Translations under genes and position numbers: made by a program
Part shown: piece after piece, positions 39,819 to 50,843 of the stretch
How the letters are laid out: each line of letters begins with the position of its first letter
Position numbering within the stretch: position 1 is the stretch's first letter
Virus record (IMG/VR): IMGVR_UViG_3300021960_000018
From: a virus
Strand: one strand, 5' to 3'
Length of the DNA stretch: 64,000 bases
Notes under the pieces: model-generated
The model's database searches: none
What the model was told of the DNA's origin: nothing
What the model saw: the letters and a program-made list of their open reading frames with translations, nothing else

Positions 39819-40246
39819 ATATTGAGAGAATCTTAGAAGAGCTAATAATTGTTCCTTCCGGTCTTCAGGTATGCCTGCAGGGGGTAGAAGGAATTGATGA
39901 TCCATTCTATGGCACTGGTAAACTTCAAAACGTAAATCATACAGAAGATATGTTTACAGTTCCATTGTTCGATATACCCTATACCAACTCAATTATTAAA
40001 CAGTTAGGTATGACTAGAACCCGAGTAATGAGAATGGCGCCGATCAGTTGTTATTCTTATCATCAAGATCCAACTCCTAGAATGCACATTCCATTAGTCA
40101 CTAATGATAATTGCTTTATGGTATTAGACGATAAAGTAGAACGATATCCAGCAGATGGAAACTACTATTTGGTAGACACTACTAAAAAACACACTTTTGT
40201 AAATGCATCATGGGAAGAGAGAATCCATCTTGTTGGATGTGTTTGA
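39812..40246 (+). CDS. Aspartyl/asparaginyl beta-hydroxylase-family oxygenase
   Basis: YHQD, RMHIPLVTN, HTFVN, RIHLV. Confidence 0.8.
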   Translation: MVDIERILEELIIVPSGLQVCLQGVEGIDDPFYGTGKLQNVNHTEDMFTVPLFDIPYTNSIIKQLGMTRTRVMRMAPISCYSYHQDPTPRMHIPLVTNDNCFMVLDDKVERYPADGNYYLVDTTKKHTFVNASWEERIHLVGCV

Positions 40247-40792
40247 ATATCTTACCTCATCAATGTAACTAATATCACCAGTGTAAAATATGTTCTGATA
40301 ACTATCTTTGTAGATCAATTCTACAGGATCTTTATACAATTCCCAGTCTGCAAATATATCTGGTCTGCCACGTTTTAATCTTTCAAAGAATTTACCAGAA
40401 CGATCTCTGCTCCATATAATTAGTGGATATTCTTTTCTTAGTATTTCCAAACTATATTTCAATTCTTTGAAGTCGTCTACCTTCTCTAAAGGTTTAGTAC
40501 CATCTGTTCGATAGTTAGGATAAGAATAATAACGACTAAACACTCTAACAACATTGTCAGATAATTTTTCACTACCACTGGCTAATATTGGCTGTTCACC
40601 GTCAAAGCATATATTGTATAGATGCATGCGATGCAGGTTCAATCTTTCTCTCGAGTAATTGACACCCAGCCTATCGTTTGCAGCAAATGTGGTTAAATCA
40701 TCAATAGCATTTTCACATCTAAACAAATCGTGATTTGTTAGATCGGGATTGATCTGTCCTTTATAGAAAAAAGTTAATAGCTCTATGTTCAT
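40208..40792 (-). CDS. Hypothetical protein, possibly GNAT-fold
   Basis: ILASG...VRVFSRYYSYPNYR pattern. Confidence 0.4.
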   Translation of the reverse strand: MNIELLTFFYKGQINPDLTNHDLFRCENAIDDLTTFAANDRLGVNYSRERLNLHRMHLYNICFDGEQPILASGSEKLSDNVVRVFSRYYSYPNYRTDGTKPLEKVDDFKELKYSLEILRKEYPLIIWSRDRSGKFFERLKRGRPDIFADWELYKDPVELIYKDSYQNIFYTGDISYIDEVRYSNTSNKMDSLFP

Positions 40793-41358
40793 TTGTAAAT
40801 GGCCTTAGACTGTATCTTTTGAAAAAATGCTTGGCCGTGTTCTATTTGAAACAATTTACACAATTGAGAACATGATGCAAAACTGTTGATGCCAAGCATC
40901 GGCCATTTTTTGGAATCATCATCTAACTCGAAAAAATAATCGTCAACGACTAGAATGCCATCTATCTTCAATAGCCTTTCCAATAAAAACAAAGCTCCTG
41001 CATTATCTGCAGCTGACTTTGCTGCATCCAAATATATGAAGTCGTATTGCTCTTCGTGGGGTAATTTGCCAATGGTTTCTAAAGCATCTCCTTTATAGTA
41101 TGTAATCTTATCTTCCCACTGCTTTACGTTGTGGTATAAGTTGTCTACATAGCTATGATGCAATTCATCAACAATGTCTAGTTTACCTTGATCGCCGACA
41201 AGATTCTCCAGAATCCATATAGTAGATCTGCCTTCATAACATCCAACTTCTAAACAATTTAAGTTAGTAGGAAGCTGAAGAGAAGACCAAACCTTTCCTC
41301 TATCATTGAAAAAATCATGAGTGAATTTGTACATCCAGAATTTCTCTCTTACCAGCAA
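40789..41358 (-). CDS. Class I SAM methyltransferase (Methyltransf_24-like)
   Basis: LEVGCYEGRS, YDFIYLD, GILVVDDY. Confidence 0.8.
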   Translation of the reverse strand: MLVREKFWMYKFTHDFFNDRGKVWSSLQLPTNLNCLEVGCYEGRSTIWILENLVGDQGKLDIVDELHHSYVDNLYHNVKQWEDKITYYKGDALETIGKLPHEEQYDFIYLDAAKSAADNAGALFLLERLLKIDGILVVDDYFFELDDDSKKWPMLGINSFASCSQLCKLFQIEHGQAFFQKIQSKAIYK

Positions 41359-41956
41359 ATATTTCTAAATCTAAAAAGATAGATCGTACATCATATGCTT
41401 TTTTATAAACATCAAACTCTTGCTGGATTGTATTCATTACTAGTCTTTTATCCCAGTGTCTTTGTTCTACACAGGGTTCTTGAATAAGAGCATTGGGGGA
41501 TTTATAGTATTCTGTAACAACCTTTGTAAAAAATTCAAAGTGATCATTAGGTCTATACAAGAGTACAGCACTGAACAATACCATGTCCACTGGAAAGTCA
41601 ACGATAAAAGATGCCTTATCATTCCAGCTTTCGTTTCTGAATTCGATGTTATTATAATCTTTCCATTTGTCTATAGCTAACGCAATTGGTTCAATAGAGG
41701 TGTCAAAGCCCATATATTGAAATTCAGTATATCCTCTTTCATAAAGAACATCTAAGACATTGCCTAATCTACAACCCACATCGACAATACCTTTACATTG
41801 TCTTTCGATAATAATATCGGCTTGTGCCTCAAATATGGGTCTGGCTTGCGGTGTATCCAAATAAGCCATAGAAGCAACATAGTAGTTTTCTTTTAGAGGA
41901 ACTTGGTGTCCATCTTGTATGTTTTCTAAATTGGGAAAAGGTACTACCAAAACCAA
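41315..41956 (-). CDS. Class I SAM methyltransferase
   Basis: IVDVGCRLG, YMGFD, FSAVLLY. Confidence 0.7.
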   Translation of the reverse strand: MVLVVPFPNLENIQDGHQVPLKENYYVASMAYLDTPQARPIFEAQADIIIERQCKGIVDVGCRLGNVLDVLYERGYTEFQYMGFDTSIEPIALAIDKWKDYNNIEFRNESWNDKASFIVDFPVDMVLFSAVLLYRPNDHFEFFTKVVTEYYKSPNALIQEPCVEQRHWDKRLVMNTIQQEFDVYKKAYDVRSIFLDLEIFAGKREILDVQIHS

Positions 41957-42474
41957 ACTCCCATGCTATATCTAACGCCATCTGATACTGGAGTTACCTT
42001 GTGTGGATATAAAAACATTGATGGGAAAATTATAGTATCTCCAATTTCCATATCGATTTTTTGTTCAAGAATATAAAATTCTCCGCCTTCAAAGTCTTTA
42101 TTTAATAACGTAACAGCACTTAAAACTGGTCTACAAATGTGATTTTTACAAAACGGAATGAATATATGATCTGCATGATTTTCAATTCCATGCCCTACGA
42201 CATATTTAACGAATATTGGTTTAGTGTTGCCAGAAATATTCGGGGAAATAACTGATAATGATTCAATGTATCGAGTATATTTCTCTTTTAATCCTTCCCA
42301 TTTTGTTTGAAGTTCTGTTATAAGATCTTTATCTTCTGTATGTCCATTAAGGGGATATATTGAACCATTATCTCTCAAGATCCCTTCAGATTCTATTTTT
42401 TTAATAATATTATTACATTCGTCTACGGTAAAATAGTTTTTAACCACATAAGAATAATCAATTAAGTTTTGCAT
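41944..42474 (-). CDS. 2OG-Fe(II) oxygenase (prolyl-hydroxylase-like)
   Basis: HAD, LNKDFEGGEF, FPSMFLYPHKV.PV..G.RYS. Confidence 0.88.
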   Translation of the reverse strand: MQNLIDYSYVVKNYFTVDECNNIIKKIESEGILRDNGSIYPLNGHTEDKDLITELQTKWEGLKEKYTRYIESLSVISPNISGNTKPIFVKYVVGHGIENHADHIFIPFCKNHICRPVLSAVTLLNKDFEGGEFYILEQKIDMEIGDTIIFPSMFLYPHKVTPVSDGVRYSMGVWFW

Positions 42475-43265
42475 ATCACACCGTAATCACTTGCAATTCG
42501 CCATTGAAGTCTTGGACCCATTACAGGTGTGCGTCTATGCAAAGTCATAAATTGATCCATTAAAAAAAGATCACCCTCAGCAAATACGTGATGCACTTGG
42601 TATTTGCTTTTGAAAATTTTAGGTTTTAATTTTGAGATCATTTCTTCATGATCAATTTTCTTTTTACCTTCCCATGCCCCAATAATAAAGTGATAAGGGA
42701 AATAAAAATAATCAACACCCGTATGAGGATGCTGACCAACTAATGGTCTAATACTACCTTTGTTCTTACTCATAAACTCAAGCTCTGGATCATCTTCATC
42801 TAGATGATACATTGTATCGTTTTGAAATTTTAATCTGATAGTAATTGATTTCCAATACTCTTGTTCGTCAGCACTCATATCGTAAAACGGCCGACTGGTA
42901 TTGCAAATGCTCAGCGTTGTATTAACATCCCCTTTGATACAATACAATCCAATAAGGATCTTATCAATGAGATGCCTACTGTTACCGTTGCTGTGCCATC
43001 CAAGCTCTCCATCACCAAACATACCAATCTTTTTGCCTTCTGAGTCTCTTTCTCCGGTGACAAAAAAGATTTCTGGGTAGTCTTTGTGATTCATGAATAA
43101 GCCAGGTGCTTCACATTCCCCAATACGTTTAAAGGTTGAAACATACTGCTGTTCATTTAATTCTTGGTCGTATAGTAATGCACAACCCTCGGTCATAACA
43201 TTATTAATTAATTCTTTTAATTCTTGATCATTGTAATTGTAAATCTGTGAGGTCATCGGTTCCAT
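42462..43265 (-). CDS. TauD/TfdA-family dioxygenase-like protein
   Basis: GWHSNG, PLVGQHPHTG, GDLFLMDQ..TLHRR, RLQWR. Confidence 0.75.
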   Translation of the reverse strand: MEPMTSQIYNYNDQELKELINNVMTEGCALLYDQELNEQQYVSTFKRIGECEAPGLFMNHKDYPEIFFVTGERDSEGKKIGMFGDGELGWHSNGNSRHLIDKILIGLYCIKGDVNTTLSICNTSRPFYDMSADEQEYWKSITIRLKFQNDTMYHLDEDDPELEFMSKNKGSIRPLVGQHPHTGVDYFYFPYHFIIGAWEGKKKIDHEEMISKLKPKIFKSKYQVHHVFAEGDLFLMDQFMTLHRRTPVMGPRLQWRIASDYGVICKT

Positions 43266-43848
43266 CCAAACTAAACATTAATGCAATTCTTGGTTTATCA
43301 CTCATATTCACTACAGCATGTGGATAACCAATATTTAAAAAGTAAGCGTTTCCGTCTTCTAAATTATATGCCTCTAATTTTCCATCACGTTTAAATAAGT
43401 TAACAACATTATTACCACCGTAGATTGGACAAATACATCTAACGGCATAATCGACATCATAGTCAACATGAAATGGAATTGTTTTGCCCGGAGCAAGTTT
43501 GGTAATACGAATTCTGCTAGCTTTAGCTTTCAATTGTGTGACAATCTTTTCAAAATAACTACCAGTATATTCTGGTGTAGGAACATTGTATAGATGTTCC
43601 TCTCTACGTCTAAGTCGTTCTTTAATACTGGCAGTGTAAGGCATTAGCTCACTGGGTTCAGTGAGATTAATCTGTTCAAAGTTATCATAAACGTTTTTTA
43701 CTAATTCCATGTGATTATCACACAGCATTGGGTTGGCAGATCTTACATCAGTATACTTGGATGCAAGTTGATCTGCAGCCTCTCTTAACAATTCTAGATC
43801 AATCTCTAGACCTAAGTTAGCATAAGTCGGTAAGTTATGTTTTTTCAT
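43228..43848 (-). CDS. Aspartyl/asparaginyl beta-hydroxylase-family oxygenase
   Basis: RITKLAPG..IPFHVD, PHAVVN, RIALM. Confidence 0.78.
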   Translation of the reverse strand: MKKHNLPTYANLGLEIDLELLREAADQLASKYTDVRSANPMLCDNHMELVKNVYDNFEQINLTEPSELMPYTASIKERLRRREEHLYNVPTPEYTGSYFEKIVTQLKAKASRIRITKLAPGKTIPFHVDYDVDYAVRCICPIYGGNNVVNLFKRDGKLEAYNLEDGNAYFLNIGYPHAVVNMSDKPRIALMFSLDGTDDLTDLQLQ

Positions 43849-44666
43849 TACTCAATTCCTGTTATACACAATCTTGCAATATCTCGATACCTACGACGTG
43901 TTTGATAATAATCATCAGTACTGGTACCTATAAAATAAGTATCGCTAGGATTTAAATCATATTTCCAACAAACTTGTTTTTGGGTTTCTTTATATCTATG
44001 ATACATTTCATCAACTGTGAATTTGTTCATTATAGCTTTCATAATAATAGCAGCAGAATAATTAAAACACTCAACCTTTTTTAGTGGATGTAAAGTAGGA
44101 TGAGGTTTTTTGGTATACACTAGTCCACATCTTTGACCGATCAATCCAAACCCCTTACTAAAGCTAAACATTACTTGTTCAGTATTCACAGGTGCAACTA
44201 TTCTTTTAATAGGGGTTGAAGAAATATAAGCGCAATCTAAAATGATAGGCACATCGATGTTATCAAATTCAAATATGTTTCCATCGTAGCATCTTGGATT
44301 ACTAATGTACAACACGTGATCTGGTAAAAGTTCTTCTACTTGCACGCCATTGCCAGATATCATTTGTGGCCACTGATACTCGCCTTCAAAATACTGCCAT
44401 GGTCTTCTATCACTCATTCTCCAATGATTAATAGCTTCTGTAGCTCCAGATGTAACATAGGCATAAGAAAAATCTGAAAGATCTATAATACTACTTACCC
44501 ATTTTCTGTGTAGATTAATAGTATCTTCTAGATCATAACTAGCAGCCCCAGTTCCTCTTTGATAATAGCTATCCGATATTCTTATGGAATTTAGAAGATC
44601 ATATACATCGGGCCAAATTGGAGATTGAACCCATTGACTATTTTTTAACAAAGAGCTTTTCTGCAA
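43848..44666 (-). CDS. PLP-dependent enzyme (aminotransferase class I/II fold)
   Basis: SGATEAI, ISNP, ILDCAY, SFSKGFGLIGQRCG. Confidence 0.8.
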   Translation of the reverse strand: MQKSSLLKNSQWVQSPIWPDVYDLLNSIRISDSYYQRGTGAASYDLEDTINLHRKWVSSIIDLSDFSYAYVTSGATEAINHWRMSDRRPWQYFEGEYQWPQMISGNGVQVEELLPDHVLYISNPRCYDGNIFEFDNIDVPIILDCAYISSTPIKRIVAPVNTEQVMFSFSKGFGLIGQRCGLVYTKKPHPTLHPLKKVECFNYSAAIIMKAIMNKFTVDEMYHRYKETQKQVCWKYDLNPSDTYFIGTSTDDYYQTRRRYRDIARLCITGIE

Positions 44667-45273
44667 GCCACCCTCCGGTATCCCATTTATGAAGTCTTAC
44701 ACGTCTCCAGTTGTCGTGATGATTTCTGTGAAAGCCTTCACCTGCTACAAAGAAGTTTAACCACCATTTATTAGATCCACCTTCATCGGAATGTCCATAA
44801 GTATTTAAAAGGCCAAAGCCCACCTTTGCAAATACAAATGGAATGGCCGCATACGCTAACCAAAAATATGGGCTGATCAAAAAACTAATAACATTGTGAG
44901 CCAGTAATAATTTTTTATGGTGGTTATGAAAGAAAACTAAACGTGGATTGCTATACAGATCCCTTGCATATTTCATGGGTATCTTGGGAACGTCCCAGGT
45001 TGTAGTCAATACCTTCCATCTACCAATGTATTGCCAAGCGTGGGGATCTTTTTCTGTATCACTATGCTGATGATGCATTCTGTGACTGGCTATCCACCCA
45101 ATAGGGGATCTAATATAAGCGACAGATAACATGAATAGGCCCATAACCTCAAACCACACAGGCACTTTAAACTGTCGGTGACAGTAATGACGATGTAATA
45201 AAATTGACGCTCCAAAATGAGATATAATCTGACTCCAGATTAATCCAATAATAATGATAAAAACTAATGTCAT
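44638..45273 (-). CDS. Membrane fatty-acid desaturase (delta-9/DesC-like)
   Basis: His boxes HRHYCH, HRMHH, GEGFHRNHH; SDTEKDPH. Confidence 0.9.
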   Translation of the reverse strand: MTLVFIIIIGLIWSQIISHFGASILLHRHYCHRQFKVPVWFEVMGLFMLSVAYIRSPIGWIASHRMHHQHSDTEKDPHAWQYIGRWKVLTTTWDVPKIPMKYARDLYSNPRLVFFHNHHKKLLLAHNVISFLISPYFWLAYAAIPFVFAKVGFGLLNTYGHSDEGGSNKWWLNFFVAGEGFHRNHHDNWRRVRLHKWDTGGWLAEKLFVKK

Positions 45274-45926
45274 CTGCCTGCTAGTGGGTTATCCAATGCC
45301 TCTTGTAATCTCATTTCAAGATCAGTTCTAAGGGTTCTCATATTAGTATCTATACGCTCCTCTGTATCCCGCATTGTATCACGTACGTCCTTTTCTGATT
45401 CGCGGATAGTCCCTTCGACTTCCCGAATAGAAGCAGTTACATCTTTTTCCTGCTGGTTCATGTCCGCGCGCACGCCCTCGAGAGTCGCTTCAATTGAGAC
45501 CTGTGTTGCTTTAATCCTTGCCTCTGCATCTTCTAAAGATTGACCTACGCGGATTTCTAGTTCTCGCATATCTCTTTCAACTCTATCGGTCGTCTGTTCA
45601 ATGCGTAGAATATCGTCTCTTAGGCCGTTTTTAATATCGCGCGTGTACGCGATCGCTTCTTCTAGTTTAATCTCTATTTCATTATTACGAGCTTCAATAG
45701 CATCAGTATCAATATTGGCAATGATTTCTTTCATCCCCATATAGTCATTATAGACTTGGAATGCACCATAAAGTCCGCCAATAATAGAACTGATAATAGC
45801 AAAGGCTGCACCAATTGTAGTCGGCGTTACAGTAATACCAAATACTTTCATTTTGGTATTTTTAAGATTTTCTATTTCTTCTTCGAACGCTTCTGTTAGT
45901 TCGCCTAAGTCTTTATCTTCTGCCAT
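45270..45926 (-). CDS. Membrane-anchored coiled-coil/apolipoprotein-like repeat protein
   Basis: One TM, then 11-residue amphipathic repeats; ends ALDNPLA. Confidence 0.7.
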   Translation of the reverse strand: MAEDKDLGELTEAFEEEIENLKNTKMKVFGITVTPTTIGAAFAIISSIIGGLYGAFQVYNDYMGMKEIIANIDTDAIEARNNEIEIKLEEAIAYTRDIKNGLRDDILRIEQTTDRVERDMRELEIRVGQSLEDAEARIKATQVSIEATLEGVRADMNQQEKDVTASIREVEGTIRESEKDVRDTMRDTEERIDTNMRTLRTDLEMRLQEALDNPLAGR

Positions 45927-45928
45927 TC

Positions 45929-46378
45929 TTACTCCTCGAACTGTAAAGCCCTGAGTGCTGAGATTTCTTCTTGCAGTTTTAAAATCTCCATTTGTCTTGC
46001 TTGTAGTTCTAATTCGAATAGTCTATTACAATCGATTCTTTCTTTAGGTTTAGCACCAAGCGGAATAACGATACGAGCAAATACACCAATATCAGCGAAA
46101 GGATCTAGATATTGATCATTGTAATACCAATCACCGTTATTAATAACGCCCATTACTCCGAACTCTAGATTAGTAGCCGAACCAATAGCATTAGCACATT
46201 CTAAGTCACCGGCTCTAATCCTATCTTGCATATTATTAGTAGAGGCTTGCGGCATGCTTAAGTTAATCGCACCGCTTTGATTCGGTAATAGATTTTGTGC
46301 TATAGCCGGATCAGGGAGATTACCTGATACGCAACCTGCAATAAACATTGGTAGGATTAAACCCAAATATTTCATCAC
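45929..46378 (-). CDS. Lipoprotein with Cys-bracketed beta hairpin and coiled-coil tail
   Basis: Lipobox IAGC; DLEC...FARIVIPLG...DCNRLFELEL. Confidence 0.65.
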   Translation of the reverse strand: MMKYLGLILPMFIAGCVSGNLPDPAIAQNLLPNQSGAINLSMPQASTNNMQDRIRAGDLECANAIGSATNLEFGVMGVINNGDWYYNDQYLDPFADIGVFARIVIPLGAKPKERIDCNRLFELELQARQMEILKLQEEISALRALQFEE

Positions 46379-46746
46379 TTTTCTCCATCAATCTTAGAAC
46401 AAATAAGAGAAGCTACATTAGTAATATTATCTGCCATAGATCTGGAACAAATATATGTAATTCGATTAATGTCAGATTTTCTAAAATATAGTTTTGCTTC
46501 TATCCCTTGCCCATATTCAAGCTTTACATATCGATCAAACGATGCAAATTCAATTGGTACCCAATCTTCAGTATAAACTTCGAATTGATATCTATCAGCA
46601 TCTTCCCTACGATTAAATAGTTCTACTGTACTCATATAAATGTTATTATATGGGGTAGGAATAATCTTAAAATAGGTAGGTGTCATTTCATGAGCTGCAG
46701 CACCAGTAGAAAACATTAGTGCTGCAGCTAATAATAATTTTTTCAT
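46375..46746 (-). CDS. Secreted PapD-like (pilus chaperone N-domain-like) protein
   Basis: Signal peptide; HEMTPTY...VELFNRRE..RYQFEV; C-terminal Cys pair. Confidence 0.5.
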   Translation of the reverse strand: MKKLLLAAALMFSTGAAAHEMTPTYFKIIPTPYNNIYMSTVELFNRREDADRYQFEVYTEDWVPIEFASFDRYVKLEYGQGIEAKLYFRKSDINRITYICSRSMADNITNVASLICSKIDGEK

Positions 46747-46759
46747 CTTATAAGTTCCC

Positions 46760-47263
46760 TTACTGGGCGATGCACTCCGCCGTTACAATGGCCACATAGT
46801 TACCAGCAGGAAATGCTTTATCATAACCATAATTGGCTGTTGATGTTACTTTAAACCAAACCGTTCCAGCTTCAGTTAGATCGAATTCAGTCGTATTATT
46901 ATATTCAATTTTATTTGTATCGTAAGCCGACATAGCAGCATCTGTTACTTCGGCAACCTCGACTTCGCCAGTCCAAGTTACTGTATCAGATAGAGATGGC
47001 GAGCTTTGGAATTCATTTGGCCAAGAAATTTTGGCGACATATGAATCTGCCAAAGCAACATCATATCTGATCTTTGGCATTACACCACCATCTGTAGTAA
47101 CAGTAGTTAGTTCGTCTGGTGTTGGCTGTGCGTAAACACCATTGATATCTGTATGGATTGTACATTTAGATTGTACAGTTCCATAAATTGGGCTGTTATT
47201 AGCTGAAGCGGTGAGTGTTGACCCAGCCAAAACAGCAGTAACAGCAAAAACTTTTTTGAACAT
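46760..47263 (-). CDS. Secreted fimbrial-subunit-like protein
   Basis: Signal peptide; IYGTVQSKCTI near the N-terminus; FPAGNYVAIVTAEC at the C-terminus. Confidence 0.55.
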   Translation of the reverse strand: MFKKVFAVTAVLAGSTLTASANNSPIYGTVQSKCTIHTDINGVYAQPTPDELTTVTTDGGVMPKIRYDVALADSYVAKISWPNEFQSSPSLSDTVTWTGEVEVAEVTDAAMSAYDTNKIEYNNTTEFDLTEAGTVWFKVTSTANYGYDKAFPAGNYVAIVTAECIAQ

Positions 47264-48153
47264 TAGTTCTCTCCGTTATTGTTTTCGTATTGTGAACGTA
47301 CCATCGCCCGGTGGTTAGCATCATTCGCTAGGCTTCTAAGTACACTCCCATTATCTGGCAATTGTGAATCCACTAATACTAAAACATCCTGATAAGTACC
47401 ACCAGGAATACTCGTAGCATAATACTGTTCAAAAGCTGGGACTGAGCCCATTTGTAATATTACTTCGGCCTGATTAATAGTTCCAGCTAATTCAGCAATA
47501 CTAGTTTTTGCATCTAGTTGCTGTTCTAACTCGGACTCTTCATCGGCATTTTCTTCCATAACAACTTGTTCTTCTTCAACATCGACTTCTTGTTCTAATT
47601 GTCTTTGAACCCATTCATTGTAATATGGATCATTGAAATCAGGATTATTTAAAAGTCCATTCTCAAGTAAGTAATCATATAAAGCCTGTTCAAATCCTGG
47701 GCATCTTGGATCATCAAGAGGTACCATACAGGTGTCATATCTGTATCTATATCTTACTGTGGCGTCAGTTACTTCACCTTCGCCTTCAGTGACTATTTCG
47801 CCATCTCCAAATCTAGTTCCTAATATACCGCCTAGCGGATCATAACCAACTATTGTATTACCAGGCAACCCACTCCAATCATCAGTGTGGGTGTAGATAT
47901 ATCCTACTGCATCATTATCCTTGTTTCTAATTGTTACCAGTAAGTCAGCATCCGGATCTTTTACTGTGGTATAACGAAATAATACACCGTCAATAACTAA
48001 CCCCGATTGTGGGGGTAGAAGATCTGGCATATACCAATAATATCCATTGACCGCGGCATTCCCAGTAACGCCAGGGATTATTTCAGAGCGCAAGGAGGAG
48101 GAGTAACAAACCACCAACAGTGGCAAGACCACCCGCAGTAGATTTAGTCTCAT
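47263..48153 (-). CDS. Secreted protein: beta domain plus acidic helical region
   Basis: Signal peptide; C..PLDDPRCPG; acidic linker; H..MVRSQY. Confidence 0.65.
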   Translation of the reverse strand: MRLNLLRVVLPLLVVCYSSSLRSEIIPGVTGNAAVNGYYWYMPDLLPPQSGLVIDGVLFRYTTVKDPDADLLVTIRNKDNDAVGYIYTHTDDWSGLPGNTIVGYDPLGGILGTRFGDGEIVTEGEGEVTDATVRYRYRYDTCMVPLDDPRCPGFEQALYDYLLENGLLNNPDFNDPYYNEWVQRQLEQEVDVEEEQVVMEENADEESELEQQLDAKTSIAELAGTINQAEVILQMGSVPAFEQYYATSIPGGTYQDVLVLVDSQLPDNGSVLRSLANDANHRAMVRSQYENNNGEN

Positions 48154-48661
48154 CGCTCATTCCTTTTAATACGCCTTCTCCCTCAGCCGGTTGATCACCA
48201 CTATTTGCCGCCCAAGCTGCTTTCGCTTCATCGCCAATTAATCCATCAAATGGACAAGGAGTTCCAGCATTCATCATAGCAGAAAATACATCTGGATCTT
48301 GACACATTACAGATACTGCAGCAACCTTCATGCCCATATCATATAGTACTTTAGCATTTTTCAATCTTAAACAGTTTTCTTCGGTAAACACCGTACCAGC
48401 GGAAATACCCAAGATCTGCGTTTGAACTGCTCCTGCCACCCCAATAGTACATAAATCCGAATTAGCAGAATTTATGGATGGGGATATAGCCGAAGGAGGT
48501 GGTGAAATAACCGTTGTAGTAGAAGTAGAGTCTACTGTGCTAGTACCGTCTGTACGAGTACAAATATAACCTTCCGGACAAGTTACCTCTTGTGCAAGAG
48601 ATGCAGATGCATACACTATACCAAATAATAGCAACGTAATCCTTAAAACATATTTAACCAT
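48083..48661 (-). CDS. Secreted Cys-rich protein with C-terminal membrane anchor
   Basis: Signal peptide; SPPPSAISP, DLCTIG...ENCLRLK...MCQD...GTPCP; C-terminal GGLLLLLLAL. Confidence 0.7.
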   Translation of the reverse strand: MVKYVLRITLLLFGIVYASASLAQEVTCPEGYICTRTDGTSTVDSTSTTTVISPPPSAISPSINSANSDLCTIGVAGAVQTQILGISAGTVFTEENCLRLKNAKVLYDMGMKVAAVSVMCQDPDVFSAMMNAGTPCPFDGLIGDEAKAAWAANSGDQPAEGEGVLKGMSDETKSTAGGLATVGGLLLLLLAL

Positions 48662-48696
48662 TTTATTTTCCTAGAGGATTATTATTCATTCATGGC

Positions 48697-48704
48697 TATT
48701 TATA
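48697..48704 (-). promoter_or_regulatory. T4-type late promoter TATAAATA
   Basis: Exact consensus 36 nt upstream of the 48661 start. Confidence 0.75.
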
Positions 48705-48723: not shown

Positions 48724-48756
48724 AAAAAAAAGGGGCAGCTTTCGCCACCCCTTTTT
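48724..48756 (-). terminator. Intrinsic terminator
   Basis: GGGGTGGC-GAAA-GCTGCCCC followed by a T run. Confidence 0.85.
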
Positions 48757-48775: not shown

Positions 48776-49150
48776 TTAGAACGAGAAAGCAACACCGAGT
48801 GTAATTTCGCCCATATCCATGGCATCAAGATCCCATGAAGATTTAACGTAGGCAGTGGCCATATCATTTAGACCATAGGAGGCTGAAAGATCAATGACTG
48901 GAAGCGAACCAAAAGCGTCCATAAGAACGAGTTCGTTGTCATAGACTACAACATCAGTTGAAGCAGCGAAAATAAAGCCCCAGTTGGTGTAACCAATTTC
49001 AGGGGTTACGACAACGGACATGTCACCAGCGTTGACAGTGTATTCAGCAACAGCATTAGTATTTAGCAATAGACCGGTATTACCGATTTCAGCAGCCGAA
49101 GCAGCAGAAGCGGCAAGAAGAGCAGCAGTGGTAAAAGCAGCTAGTTTCAT
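48776..49150 (-). CDS. Small outer-membrane beta-barrel-like protein
   Basis: Signal peptide, alternating beta strands, C-terminal LGVAFSF (BAM-type terminal Phe). Confidence 0.7.
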   Translation of the reverse strand: MKLAAFTTAALLAASAASAAEIGNTGLLLNTNAVAEYTVNAGDMSVVVTPEIGYTNWGFIFAASTDVVVYDNELVLMDAFGSLPVIDLSASYGLNDMATAYVKSSWDLDAMDMGEITLGVAFSF

Positions 49151-49170: not shown

Positions 49171-49392
49171 TTATTTACGAGACCAGATTTCATATAGAAC
49201 CCAAACAGCGATCAGACCAACAAGGCCTTGAGAACCGAGAGCAGCAACAATAGCAGAAACGTTGCCAATGACGCTGACACCAGCGATAGATGGCATCCCA
49301 AGAACTTCCAGAACGATACCAAGAGCCAAGAGACTGACACCTAGCTCAGCAACTTGACCAATAACAGATTTAACTTTGTTTAGAACTTCCAT
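49171..49392 (-). CDS. Small inner-membrane protein
   Basis: Hydrophobic; LGSQGLVGLIAVWVLY. Confidence 0.7.
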   Translation of the reverse strand: MEVLNKVKSVIGQVAELGVSLLALGIVLEVLGMPSIAGVSVIGNVSAIVAALGSQGLVGLIAVWVLYEIWSRK

Positions 49393-49420
49393 ATTAGACT
49401 TCCTTTATGTTTGAGAAATT

Positions 49421-49740
49421 GGGCCCGTTCTGTTTCTAGGTGGAACCCATACCCACTTAGCAAAAAGCAGTTCTTAGGCTGCTAAAGCCAGAGGAGCAAA
49501 GTTATCGTTTGCATTTAGTTTAATTGATCTATACGCGATCATCCGGTAAACTCCACTCAATCTTCACACCTGTCGATCCTATTTCGACCCCATCATAAGC
49601 ACACCGGCAGTTAAACATGCATTCTTTTAACTAATCCGCCCTAAACTAATAATTGATTAGTACCGATGTGCTTATGGTGGAGTCGCTGGGTACCGCCCCC
49701 AGGTCCAGAATGTGTCCACGTTGCTTCAACGTTTACAAAC
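49421..49740 (-). ncRNA. ssrA: Two-piece (circularly permuted) tmRNA, alphaproteobacterial type; tag ANDNFAPLALAA
   Basis: Acceptor piece ends GACTCCACCA (CCA at 49675-49677); hairpin intervening segment; coding piece starts GGGGTCGAAATAGGATCGAC at 49591; tag ORF 49512-49474. Confidence 0.92.
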
Positions 49741-49749
49741 ATACTTATA

Positions 49750-50328
49750 TCATATGTTGTCTAGGTTGATGATCCCCATTGGTGCAAATTCTTGATGATG
49801 TGACATTTCGGTAACCTTAGGTGCATTCTTACCTAATAGATTATCGAACAACTGTTTAACACCAAGAGTAAGATCATCTACTGAACCGTTATTATCGATA
49901 ATAAAATCAGCCATCCACGGTTCAATACTGTTGCTTTCTTTGCTTTCTTCTTTAACATGCTCTGAGCGATCGACCCAGATAGCAATGTCGAATACACCAG
50001 CATTCTTCATAAAGGTGAATTCACGCTTGTTACGAAGACCACAGTAAATATCAGACTCTTTAAAGATTTCGCGGCCAAGTCGCGTTGGGTCTTCGGCACA
50101 ATAATTTGCTATGAGAGTATACCATCTTTTACGGTGCTTATGTCTATCTTTAAAGCATTCTTCTACAGTCTTATAACCAAATTCATGCTTAAGGACCGGG
50201 AAGACGACATGTTCAGCACAGAATTCACTGGACGAACGGAAAGACATACCGTAGAACATAGCTAAAAGCTCTGCTACGGTGTCTTTACCGTGACGACCAT
50301 GACCAACCAATACAATTTTAGGATTCAT
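49750..50328 (-). CDS. Deoxynucleoside monophosphate kinase-like protein
   Basis: GHGRHGKDTVA, R...E, DFIIDNNGS. Confidence 0.7.
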   Translation of the reverse strand: MNPKIVLVGHGRHGKDTVAELLAMFYGMSFRSSSEFCAEHVVFPVLKHEFGYKTVEECFKDRHKHRKRWYTLIANYCAEDPTRLGREIFKESDIYCGLRNKREFTFMKNAGVFDIAIWVDRSEHVKEESKESNSIEPWMADFIIDNNGSVDDLTLGVKQLFDNLLGKNAPKVTEMSHHQEFAPMGIINLDNI

Positions 50329-50366: not shown

Positions 50367-50843
50367 TTAATTCCAACTTCCATCCCAGACATAAAAGATG
50401 TGATTGCCAATCCTACGAGAAGGCTCCATATGCGAAGCCCATTGCGGCTTTCGGATATAGTCAGCGTGGTAGAATTCAGCCCCATTTGTAATGTCGGGGT
50501 ATTTTTGATAGTATACTAGAGATGCAATTGCCTGAGCCATTTCCCAAGCTTCTGCATTGCGTGGAACATCAGATTTACCATCATGAGTCCAACTAAACTG
50601 ATTATCTTGCCAAACTACATCGCATATTGTATCTGGAAAATAAGCATTCTTAACACGATTCATAGTTACATGGGCTACTGCAATTTGACCTACTAGATTC
50701 TGGTCTCTTGCTTCGAAATAGACATTCAATGCAAGACATTCTTTATCTTGTTGAGTTTGCGCTGCCATAGCAGAAGATACGGCTGCGAATGCCATGGATG
50801 CCACAATGGAAGCATTCAGGGCAAAGGAGATTACGTTCTTCAT
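50367..50843 (-). CDS. SleB-like cell wall hydrolase (Hydrolase_2)
   Basis: CLALNVYFEAR, VAHVTMNRV, FPDTICDVVWQ..QFSW, IGNHIFY. Confidence 0.9.
   Translation of the reverse strand: MKNVISFALNASIVASMAFAAVSSAMAAQTQQDKECLALNVYFEARDQNLVGQIAVAHVTMNRVKNAYFPDTICDVVWQDNQFSWTHDGKSDVPRNAEAWEMAQAIASLVYYQKYPDITNGAEFYHADYIRKPQWASHMEPSRRIGNHIFYVWDGSWN

What the first reader, a model, noticed from the sequence alone, without database searches (positions are those of the whole stretch)
45270..48704. Late-expressed six-gene exported module resembling an usher-less chaperone/pilin assembly system
Seen: six tightly coupled genes follow a TATAAATA late promoter and are insulated upstream by a strong terminator. 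All encode exported or membrane proteins. 46760-47263 has a signal peptide, G.V...C at the N-terminus and G.Y.A.V.A.C at the C-terminus, like chaperone-usher pilins. 46375-46746 resembles a PapD N-domain. 48083-48661 and lipoprotein 45929-46378 share an architecture DL(E)C-amphipathic beta hairpin-C.RL. 45270-45926 is a membrane-anchored coiled coil. No usher-sized gene is present. Inference: a phage-built surface fibre or trans-envelope complex, in which the two hairpin proteins oligomerise into an outer-membrane channel in place of an usher. Possible roles include receptor masking/superinfection exclusion, cell aggregation, or lysis timing.
Basis: partly seen in the sequence, partly recalled or inferred. 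Interest (0 to 1): 0.8.

Follow-up and report, generated by a model that had tools for sequence, protein, structure and literature searches.

The report
Phage late operon of exported envelope proteins
An uncultured marine T4-like phage carries a very common, virus-only block of six exported proteins, switched on late, one of which folds like half of a bacterial pilus chaperone; no outer-membrane pore gene is present, and what the block does in the dying cell's envelope is unknown.

Summary
Six tightly packed minus-strand genes (48661 to 45270) follow a strong terminator and a TATAAATA box, and all six products carry a signal peptide or a membrane anchor. The gene order is the same in all 98 IMG/VR loci fetched.

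- P4 (46375-46746) folds like the N-domain of PapD/FimC/SafB chaperones (Z 8.8-10.7), and about equally like MSP and other Ig domains.
- P3 (46760-47263) is a confident beta-sandwich. It matches chaperone-usher pilins only weakly and MSCRAMM/CBM sandwiches better.
- P1 and P5 are not homologous. Nothing supports an outer-membrane channel.
- No usher is found in complete relatives.

New here: the block is a composite of two sub-modules.
- P1/P2/P6 occurs alone in cultured pelagiphages and roseophages, often beside a holin or endolysin.
- P3/P4/P5 occurs alone in cultured Vibrio and Klebsiella phages.

Best reading (0.4): a periplasmic, inner-membrane-anchored assembly that acts at or near lysis, not an extracellular pilus.

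Earlier follow-ups of this scan found the same cassette in many other phage genomes and gave it the same "usher-less pilin-chaperone" label. No paper describing it was found.

The parts
48724..48756 (-). Intrinsic terminator ending the upstream unit (after the 124-aa exported protein gene)
   Evidence: 13-bp stem with GAAA loop, then a U run; -20 kcal/mol, z -4.0 against shuffles.
48697..48704 (-). TATAAATA, a T4-type late-promoter box 36 nt before the P1 start
   Evidence: An exact copy lies 35-68 nt before P1 in 8 of 14 distinct upstream regions of relatives, from about five lineages. That it acts as a late promoter is inferred from what is known of T4-like phages.
48083..48661 (-). P1: signal peptide, Thr/Ser/Pro-rich stalk, very conserved 4-Cys domain (about aa 69-150), C-terminal hydrophobic tail (GG..LLLLL)
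   Evidence: Alignment A4 and hydropathy. phrog_20531, function unknown. The family has 1644 representative clusters, all viral in the Atlas. The domain occurs in cultured pelagiphages, roseophages and Ralstonia phage RSP15.
47263..48153 (-). P2: signal peptide, beta-rich N-domain, disulfide loop C142..C151-P-G-(F/Y), acidic linker, C-terminal domain ending (M/I)V.SQY
   Evidence: Alignment A3. 433 unnamed metagenome relatives with no Pfam domain. Its C-terminal part matches weakly the large protein that follows P1-like genes in L044 (domain E 2e-4) and in HTVC115P gp53 (1.5e-3).
46760..47263 (-). P3: signal peptide, conserved free N-terminal peptide (P-I-x-G-x-V-x-x-K-C), beta-sandwich whose first and last strands carry the only two Cys (C34, C164)
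   Evidence: A1. AlphaFold2 pLDDT 88. Fold searches. phrog_25895. 405 unnamed relatives.
46375..46746 (-). P4: signal peptide, single Ig domain of the PapD/MSP type; mature N-terminus His; C100-C116 pair
   Evidence: A2. AlphaFold2 pLDDT 87. Foldseek lists FimC, SafB, DraB, PapD, CsuC and Caf1M at E 5e-4 to 5e-3. VIA gives Z 8.8-10.7 to chaperone N-domains over 98-104 residues.
45929..46378 (-). P5: signal peptide (lipoprotein in this phage), two-Cys beta region, C-terminal amphipathic coiled-coil helix
   Evidence: A5. phrog_37374. Lipobox in only 3 of 56 relatives. At least 590 matching stretches in IMG/VR. Homologs in Vibrio phage 1.081.O, Klebsiella jumbo phages and Vibrio phage K249.
45270..45926 (-). 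P6: short cytoplasmic N-terminus, one Gly/Ala/Ser/Thr-rich membrane helix, periplasmic coiled coil whose length varies between lineages, invariant C-terminal LDNPL tip
   Evidence: A6 and hydropathy. Homologs: HTVC115P gp49 (E 1.5e-35), CRP-810 gp51, CRP-207 gp73 and an ORF of MW202481.

Best explanation
This is a real, virus-only late operon. Near the end of infection it sends six proteins through Sec into the envelope of the infected Gram-negative cell. The phage-borne alpha-type tmRNA suggests an alphaproteobacterial host.

The operon is a composite of two sub-modules.

Sub-module A (P1, P2, P6) is the membrane-anchored part:
- P6 sits in the inner membrane and projects a coiled coil of lineage-specific length, ending in an invariant LDNPL tip.
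- P1 is held by a C-terminal hydrophobic tail and carries a disulfide-bonded head on a Thr/Ser-rich stalk.
- P2 is a soluble two-domain partner.

Sub-module B (P3, P4, P5) is the periplasmic part:
- P4, a single PapD/MSP-type Ig domain, would hold or present P3.
- P3 is a disulfide-stapled beta-sandwich with a conserved free N-terminal peptide, possibly bound by strand complementation.
- P5, a Cys-bracketed beta region plus a coiled-coil helix, works near the inner face of the outer membrane.

Together they would build a periplasmic, envelope-spanning assembly. It would not be an extracellular pilus, since no usher exists. Its job would belong to the last step of infection: breaching or timing the breach of the wall and outer membrane, or handling the envelope at release.

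Shown: anatomy, export signals, conservation, the folds of P3 and P4, the split into two sub-modules, and the genomic neighbours. Inferred: every contact between the proteins, the location of P5, and the role.
For: Conservation and abundance:
- Order P1 to P6 is the same in 18 loci found through P3 and in 80 loci found independently through P5. Of those 80, 59 are complete and the rest are cut by the flank or contig end.
- Flanking genes vary.
- Family sizes: 405, 433 and 1644 hits, none named.
- Only mis-binned MAG contigs match among 185,579 species genomes, and none of 400 genomes of one class match.

Folds:
- P4 is PapD/MSP-like.
- P3 is a confident beta-sandwich, and chaperone-usher pilins head the Foldseek list.
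- The N-terminal peptide of P3 is conserved although it is unstructured in the model.

No usher: PF00577 is absent from a complete 146.5-kb relative and three others, while the E. coli control matches.

Two sub-modules:
- P1-like and P6-like genes, with a large exported protein between them, occur in HTVC115P, CRP-810, CRP-207, MW202481 and Mosig. No P3 or P5 was found anywhere in those genomes.
- P3-, P4- and P5-like genes occur in Vibrio phage K249, Klebsiella phage FBKp24 and Vibrio phage 1.081.O. No P1 or P6 was found in those genomes.

Link to lysis:
- In Mosig a GTA_holin_3TM gene lies directly upstream.
- In MW202481 a GH24 endolysin lies two genes after the P6-like gene.
- In L040 a weak T4-spanin hit and a Phage_lysozyme gene lie a few genes downstream.
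- A Hydrolase_2 endolysin with a signal peptide lies upstream in this window and in L001-L006, and downstream in L010.
- In K249 an endolysin lies 2.2 kb downstream.
- Complete relatives have no T4 holin T and no GTA holin, so lysis functions there are still unassigned.

P5 location: where a lipobox occurs, the +2 residue is not Asp (window; L077, L122). By the E. coli sorting rule this fits an outer-membrane-proximal place.
Against: - No interaction was tested.
- P4 matches MSP domains, a chitosanase Ig domain and FixG-type domains as well as it matches chaperones. It has one domain, not two, and gives no Pfam PapD_N hit.
- The best Z-scores of P3 go to MSCRAMM, CBM and Gram-positive pilin sandwiches at a level the tool calls common. 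The model shows a closed sandwich, not an obviously incomplete one.
- The lysis link rests on neighbourhood only. In most T4-like loci no lysis gene lies within 6 kb, and in L045/L046 the P1-like gene sits beside DNA-metabolism genes.
- Two 'lysozyme' neighbours in roseophages turned out to be P6 homologs, not lysozymes.
- L040 may have its own spanin, so the module need not replace one.
Confidence: 0.4

Rival explanations
1. Receptor masking or superinfection exclusion. The exported proteins coat or block a host outer-membrane receptor late in infection, so that progeny are not lost on debris and later phages are kept out, as T5 Llp and the Cor lipoproteins do.
For: - In Vibrio phage K249 the P3/P4/P5 trio lies directly after two large genes. 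One of them has a weak tail-fibre PHROG hit (E 7e-4), and its start looks like that of a tail fibre.
- P3 resembles adhesin and carbohydrate-binding sandwiches.
- Flanks are variable and the gene content looks moron-like.
Against: - Known exclusion proteins are single small proteins. A fixed six-gene order across hundreds of phages suggests a machine.
- Inner-membrane anchors with a long coiled coil (P6) are not needed to mask a receptor.
- No host target is known.
Confidence: 0.2
2. Spanin substitute. P6 acts as an i-spanin-like inner-membrane coiled coil and P5 as its outer-membrane partner. After the wall is cut, the two fuse or tear the membranes; the other four proteins are accessories.
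For: - P6 has i-spanin topology: an N-terminal membrane helix, a periplasmic coiled coil and a conserved C-terminal tip.
- P5 is adjacent, has a C-terminal coiled-coil helix, and is a lipoprotein in this phage.
- Lysis genes are neighbours in several lineages.
- No holin T was found in complete relatives.
Against: - The P5 lipobox is present in only 3 of 56 relatives.
- P5 lies upstream of P6, not embedded in it or downstream of it.
- No embedded lipoprotein frame occurs in P6 in the window or in seven of eight relatives checked.
- P6-like genes occur without P5 in small phages.
- L040 has a separate weak T4-spanin hit.
Confidence: 0.15
3. One reading: a true surface fibre. P4 chaperones P3 subunits, which polymerise by donor-strand exchange and leave the cell through a channel made of P1 and P5, or through a host usher.
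For: - P4 has the PapD-like fold.
- Chaperone-usher pilins head the Foldseek list for P3.
- P3 has pilin-like terminal motifs and a conserved N-terminal peptide.
- Earlier follow-ups on other genomes report predicted docking and head-to-tail chaining (not reproduced here).
Against: - There is no usher.
- P1 and P5 are unrelated. P1 is built as a tail-anchored periplasmic protein, and no barrel-forming pattern was shown for either.
- The first and last strands of P3 carry its only two Cys, and the model is a closed sandwich.
- A fibre made minutes before lysis has no obvious use.
Confidence: 0.1
4. The six genes are independent periplasmic accessory proteins that merely travel together. For example, P4 could be a metal-binding Ig domain with an N-terminal His, like CopC, PCuAC or YcnI.
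For: - The mature N-terminus of P4 is His in nearly all T4-like relatives and in Vibrio phage 1.081.O.
- A copper-only SOD and a Cu(I) chaperone appear among the weaker fold matches.
Against: - The His is missing in the K249 and FBKp24 homologs.
- Invariant order and overlapping reading frames in 98 loci argue for one unit.
Confidence: 0.05

Closest known systems
Chaperone-usher pilus pathway (PapD/FimC/SafB/Caf1M/CsuC chaperones with their pilins)
   Same: P4 superposes on chaperone domain 1 (Z 8.8-10.7, about 100 residues, rmsd about 3 A). P3 is a Sec-exported Ig-like sandwich of pilin size, with a G.V...C start and a G.Y...V end. The two genes are adjacent.
   Different: P4 has a single domain of about 104 residues rather than a two-domain chaperone. 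There is no usher. No Pfam hit was obtained for chaperone or pilin. The Cys pair of P3 joins its first and last strands. By Z-score, P3 matches other sandwich families better.
Two-component spanins (lambda Rz/Rz1, T4 PseT.3/PseT.2)
   Same: P6 has i-spanin topology and a coiled coil. The module is expressed late and in several phages lies beside a holin or endolysin.
   Different: The partner P5 is usually not a lipoprotein and lies upstream. No sequence match to spanin families was found. Four further conserved exported proteins are present.
Receptor-blocking lipoproteins Llp (T5) and Cor (phi80/T1/N15)
   Same: These are phage-encoded exported proteins that act on the host outer membrane. 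In K249 the trio lies next to probable tail-fibre genes.
   Different: Those are single small lipoproteins. Here six genes keep a fixed order and include two inner-membrane anchors.
Uncharacterised PHROG families phrog_20531, phrog_25895, phrog_37374 and phrog_25455
   Same: P1, P3 and P5 match the first three. K249 gp0052 and gp0053 match phrog_25895 and phrog_25455 strongly.
   Different: All four are annotated 'unknown function', and none has been studied.

Membership tests
PapD-like periplasmic chaperone (chaperone-usher pathway) | Ig fold of domain 1 (PapD_N type) | tested here: met
   Foldseek lists FimC, SafB, DraB and PapD at E 5e-4 to 2e-3, TM by query 0.56-0.63. VIA gives Z 10.7 (SafB), 10.2 (FimC), 10.1 (YadV), 8.9 (PapD) and 8.8 (CsuC). 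MSP and other Ig domains score the same.
PapD-like periplasmic chaperone (chaperone-usher pathway) | Two-domain boomerang of about 200-220 residues with a subunit-binding cleft | tested here: not met
   Mature P4 has about 104 residues and one domain.
PapD-like periplasmic chaperone (chaperone-usher pathway) | Sequence match to Pfam PapD_N / PapD_C | tested here: not met
   No Pfam family at E up to 0.1. No match to PDB sequences with the profile.
PapD-like periplasmic chaperone (chaperone-usher pathway) | Binds its subunit by donor-strand complementation | not testable with these tools
Earlier follow-ups report docking in other genomes; this was not reproduced here.
Chaperone-usher pilin | Incomplete Ig fold lacking the last strand, with a groove for a donor strand | tested here: inconclusive
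   The model is a confident sandwich of 11 strands. CfaB, FimF, FimG and Caf1 head the Foldseek list, but at E 4e-3 to 4e-2 and TM 0.38-0.46. By Z-score the best matches are MSCRAMM and CBM folds at 7.8 or less.
Chaperone-usher pilin | N-terminal extension with alternating hydrophobic residues | tested here: met
   The peptide P-I-x-G-x-V-x-x-K-C is conserved (G28 invariant; I26 and V30 in 90% or more) and lies before the first modelled strand. The pattern alone does not show strand exchange.
Chaperone-usher pilin | Sequence match to Fimbrial / SCPU / related Pfam families | tested here: not met
   None of 28 family members hits such a family even at E up to 10.
Chaperone-usher system as a whole | Outer-membrane usher (PF00577) | tested here: not met
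   No hit in four relative genomes, one of them complete with terminal repeats; the E. coli control rings. The largest ORF in the window is 551 aa, a ribonucleotide reductase.
Two-component spanin | i-spanin: N-terminal membrane helix plus periplasmic coiled coil | tested here: met
   P6 hydropathy and alignment. This is topology only; no family match was found.
Two-component spanin | o-spanin: outer-membrane lipoprotein encoded inside or just after the i-spanin gene | tested here: not met
   There is no embedded lipobox frame in the window. P5 lies upstream and has a lipobox in only 3 of 56 relatives.
GlyGly-CTERM / other C-terminal sorting signals (for the P1 tail) | Match to the NCBIfam sorting-signal models and a basic cluster after the hydrophobic stretch | tested here: not met
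   No NCBIfam hit. The tail ends in Leu residues with no basic residues.
T4 holin T / GTA holin | Pfam PF11031 or PF11351 | tested here: not met
   P6 has no such hit. Neither family is found in the relatives' genomes.

The most novel reading that the evidence does not exclude
Phages of Gram-negative bacteria possess an undescribed, usher-independent assembly device. A one-domain PapD-type protein loads beta-sandwich subunits onto an inner-membrane-anchored coiled-coil scaffold, building a periplasmic structure that breaks or controls the outer membrane at release. That would be a further class of phage egress machinery beside spanins and disruptins. It would be modular: trio A and trio B each work alone in smaller phages.
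Probability: 0.2. Interest if true: 0.85.

Novelty: new variant of a known kind. Interest (0 to 1): 0.7.

Why it matters
The block is among the commoner unknown gene sets of aquatic T4-like phages, with hundreds of IMG/VR contigs and more than 400 protein clusters per gene. None of its six proteins has a name, a Pfam family or a paper.

It shows phages using a pilus-chaperone-type fold outside any pilus system. In phages of SAR11 and Roseobacter, part of it sits beside lysis genes, and how those phages breach the outer membrane is poorly known.

The finding that it splits into two trios, both present in cultured phages (Vibrio phage K249, Vibrio phage 1.081.O, Klebsiella phage FBKp24; Pelagibacter phages HTVC115P and Mosig; roseophages CRP-810 and CRP-207), makes its function testable by ordinary phage genetics.

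Tried and rejected
Sequence searches that found nothing:
- Pfam, NCBIfam and PDB sequence searches of all six proteins and their profiles gave nothing significant.
- A P3 tblastn search of 50,697 phage records found nothing at E 1e-3. Only at E 5 did K249 appear; it was then confirmed by profile and PHROG.

Structure searches that added nothing:
- The BFVD fold search of P3 gave nothing below E 1e-3.
- The ESM Atlas model of P2 is too poor to use (pLDDT 0.36).
- P1 has no Atlas model.
- The atlas fold library was not installed.

Ideas tested and rejected:
- P1-P5 homology.
- P2 homology to the 611-aa Mosig protein.
- Significant P6 similarity to Mosig_00200; only the NPLAG end is shared.
- The 'lysozyme' neighbours in CRP-810 and CRP-207 as evidence for a lysis link. 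They are P6 homologs, so the annotation is doubtful.
- The closest GenBank phage by UvsX (Phage C48C1, 77%) as a cultured model. It lacks the module in the syntenic region searched, after its endolysin gene.
- A conserved seventh gene after P6. There is none; the next gene varies.
- Cellular homologs. Only phage-like MAG contigs matched, and none of 400 genomes of one class matched.

Literature:
- Searches found no description of the module.

Full report
**Context.** The window comes from a T4-like phage. It encodes UvsX, a gp41-type helicase, ribonucleotide reductase and other replication genes. No whole genome is held for it. The nearest GenBank record by UvsX is Phage C48C1 (Kyanoviridae, 77% identity). 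An alpha-type two-piece tmRNA lies at 49418-49790 (125 bits), which suggests an alphaproteobacterial host.

**Observation.** Six minus-strand ORFs lie at the stated coordinates. I call them P1 (48083-48661), P2 (47263-48153), P3 (46760-47263), P4 (46375-46746), P5 (45929-46378) and P6 (45270-45926).
- They are packed with overlaps or gaps of at most 13 nt.
- Upstream lies a hairpin of -20 kcal/mol with a U run (z -4.0), then TATAAATA 36 nt before the P1 start.
- The octamer is not enriched in the window overall. However, it recurs 35-68 nt before P1 in 8 of 14 distinct upstream regions, from about five lineages, which chance would not give.
- P1 to P5 start with signal peptides. P1 also ends in a hydrophobic tail. 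P6 has one membrane helix and then coiled coil.
One correction: the P5 lipobox is peculiar to this phage and a few others (3 of 56).

**Conservation.**
- A search with P3 fetched 18 IMG/VR loci with all six genes in the same order and with varying flanks.
- An independent search with the P5 profile found at least 590 stretches. Of the 80 loci kept, 59 show P1-P2-P3-P4-P5-P6 in full; the other 21 show the same order cut by the flank or contig end.
- P3, P2 and P1 have 405, 433 and 1644 relatives or representative clusters. All are unnamed and have no Pfam domain.
- Among one genome for each of 185,579 species, only seven short MAG contigs of incoherent taxonomy match P3. One MAG carries five different copies, as expected for binned phage contigs.
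- None of 400 genomes of that MAG's class matches. The module therefore looks virus-only.

**Folds.**
- *P4.* The model is good (pLDDT 87). Foldseek returns chaperone-usher chaperones (FimC, SafB, DraB, PapD, FaeE, CsuC, Caf1M), MSP domains and ASH/PapD-like domains at E 5e-4 to 5e-3. The exhaustive aligner gives Z 10.7 for SafB, 10.2 for FimC, 10.1 for YadV, 8.9 for PapD and 8.8 for CsuC, always to residues 1 to about 120 of the chaperone. It also gives 10.9 for a chitosanase Ig domain and 9-10 for MSP domains. P4 therefore has the PapD/MSP-type Ig fold, but as one domain only and without any sequence-family match.
- *P3.* The model is good (pLDDT 88; residues 34-167 mostly above 90). Foldseek puts CfaB, FimF, FimG, the PapG pilin domain, Caf1 and CsuA/B near the top, but at E 4e-3 or worse and TM 0.38-0.46. 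By Z-score the best matches are MSCRAMM N3 domains, CBM3 and Gram-positive pilins at 7.8 or less, which the tool flags as a common level. BFVD adds nothing.
- *P3 sequence features.* The two Cys sit in the first and last strands. A conserved peptide, P-I-x-G-x-V-x-x-K-C, precedes the first strand. This is compatible with a pilin-like subunit but does not show one.

**The other four proteins.**
- P1 has a Thr/Ser/Pro-rich stalk, an almost invariant 80-residue four-Cys domain, and a terminal GG..LLLL tail.
- P2 has a beta-rich N-domain, a C..C-P-G-(F/Y) loop, an acidic linker and a conserved C-terminal domain.
- P5 has two Cys bracketing a beta region, followed by a coiled-coil helix.
- P6 has conserved ends and a coiled coil that varies from about 90 to 190 residues, ending in an invariant LDNPL tip.
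Profile comparison gives probability 0.7%, so the 'two hairpin proteins' idea falls. Nothing tested speaks for a channel.

**No usher.** PF00577 is absent from four relative genomes, including a complete 146.5-kb one with terminal repeats; the control matches in E. coli. No ORF in the window exceeds 551 aa.

**The block is a composite.**
- *Trio A (P1, P2, P6).* The P1 domain occurs in cultured pelagiphages, roseophages and Ralstonia phage RSP15. It is always followed, usually with an overlap, by a large exported protein of 430-745 aa. In two cases that protein's C-terminal part matches the P2 profile weakly.
- *P6 homologs.* The P6 profile finds HTVC115P gp49 (E 1.5e-35), CRP-810 gp51, CRP-207 gp73 and an ORF of MW202481. 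All consist of a membrane helix, a coiled coil and an NPL end. Those five genomes have no detectable P3 or P5.
- *Trio B (P3, P4, P5).* Vibrio phage K249 has P3-, P4- and P5-like genes in that order (profile E 6e-5, 1.5e-3 and 1e-8; the same PHROG as P3). Klebsiella jumbo phage FBKp24 and the KVP40-like Vibrio phage 1.081.O have P4-like, P5-like and P3-like genes side by side. Their P4-like matches are weak (profile E 8e-3 in FBKp24 and 0.36 in 1.081.O), and their P3-like genes are recognised only by architecture. No P1 or P6 was found anywhere in these three genomes.
- The T4-like six-gene block thus joins two units that each work alone elsewhere.

**Neighbours.**
- Trio A lies next to lysis genes more often than chance suggests. 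In Mosig a GTA_holin_3TM gene lies directly upstream. In MW202481 a GH24 endolysin with an N-terminal membrane segment lies two genes after the P6-like gene. In L040 a weak T4-spanin hit and a Phage_lysozyme gene lie a few genes downstream.
- In this window a Hydrolase_2 endolysin with a signal peptide lies 1.7 kb upstream. The same holds in L001-L006, and in L010 one lies downstream.
- Between the endolysin and P1 lie a small membrane protein and a 124-aa exported protein. A counterpart of the latter in L014 is a Pfam Phage_OMP barrel.
- In K249, trio B lies between two large probable tail-fibre genes and an endolysin 2.2 kb further on.
- Against this: most T4-like loci show no lysis gene within 6 kb, and two roseophage 'lysozymes' proved to be P6 homologs.
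- Complete relatives lack T4 holin T and GTA holin, so their lysis genes beyond the endolysin are unassigned.

**Reading.**
- The best-supported picture is a late, periplasmic, inner-membrane-anchored assembly. It contains a chaperone-like and subunit-like pair and acts around lysis or release. It is not an extracellular pilus (confidence 0.4).
- The spanin idea is weakened because P5 is rarely a lipoprotein, lies upstream of P6, and no embedded lipoprotein frame exists.
- All protein-protein contacts are inferred.

**Relation to earlier notes of this scan.**
- The same cassette was noted in dozens of other phage genomes. Several follow-ups labelled it an usher-less pilin-chaperone envelope cassette and reported predicted P3-P4 docking.
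- I reproduced the fold results and the absence of an usher, but not the docking.
- This report adds the split into two trios, their presence in cultured phages, the lysis-gene neighbours of trio A, the rarity of the P5 lipobox, and the lack of homology between P1 and P5.
- No paper describing the module was found.

Noticed in passing
window 49418-49790 (-): Phage-encoded two-piece (permuted) tmRNA of the alphaproteobacterial type (RF01849, 125 bits; RF04321, 116 bits). It hints at an alphaproteobacterial host.
   Followed up: partly
window 50367-50843 (-): Hydrolase_2 (SleB-type) endolysin with a clear N-terminal signal peptide, so it is exported by Sec rather than released by a holin. Homologs lie near the module in L001-L006 and L010.
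   Followed up: partly
window 48776-49150 (-) and 49171-49392 (-): A 124-aa exported protein ending in F, whose counterpart in L014 hits Pfam Phage_OMP (cyanophage outer-membrane beta-barrel). Beside it is a 73-aa protein with 2-3 membrane helices (a holin candidate), whose homolog in L059 lies just after P6 instead of before P1.
   Followed up: partly
L021 5156-5578 (Roseobacter phage CRP-810 gp51) and L032 3292-3873 (CRP-207 gp73): Both are annotated 'lysozyme' in GenBank, but they are membrane-anchored coiled-coil proteins homologous to P6 (E 2.6e-10 and 2.4e-6). The annotation looks wrong.
   Followed up: yes
window 45270-45273 and 40208-45273 (-): P6 overlaps by ATGA a fatty-acid-desaturase-like gene that heads a run of oxygenase, methyltransferase and PLP enzyme genes. 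A desaturase also follows P6 in L004-L006, but in most relatives the next gene is different, so the enzymes are not a fixed part of the module.
   Followed up: partly
G001 (MAG behind L023), contigs C174, C64, C105, C76, C121: One Rhodobacteraceae MAG holds five different P3 homologs on five contigs. Most likely several T4-like phage contigs were binned with the bacterium.
   Followed up: no
L019 568-1026 and 4318-4746 (Pelagibacter phage Mosig): Mosig_00203 is a GTA_holin_3TM holin (26 bits, just above the 24.8-bit cut-off) directly upstream of its P1-like gene. Mosig_00199 is a tail-anchored coiled-coil DUF7201 protein that closes the cluster.
   Followed up: partly
L007 7808-8206, L012 8052-8453, L119 3484-3876: A roughly 130-aa lipoprotein family (lipobox, then S..(W/Y)DDNE) lies directly after P6 in some lineages and further away in others. 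It could be a lineage-specific outer-membrane partner.
   Followed up: no
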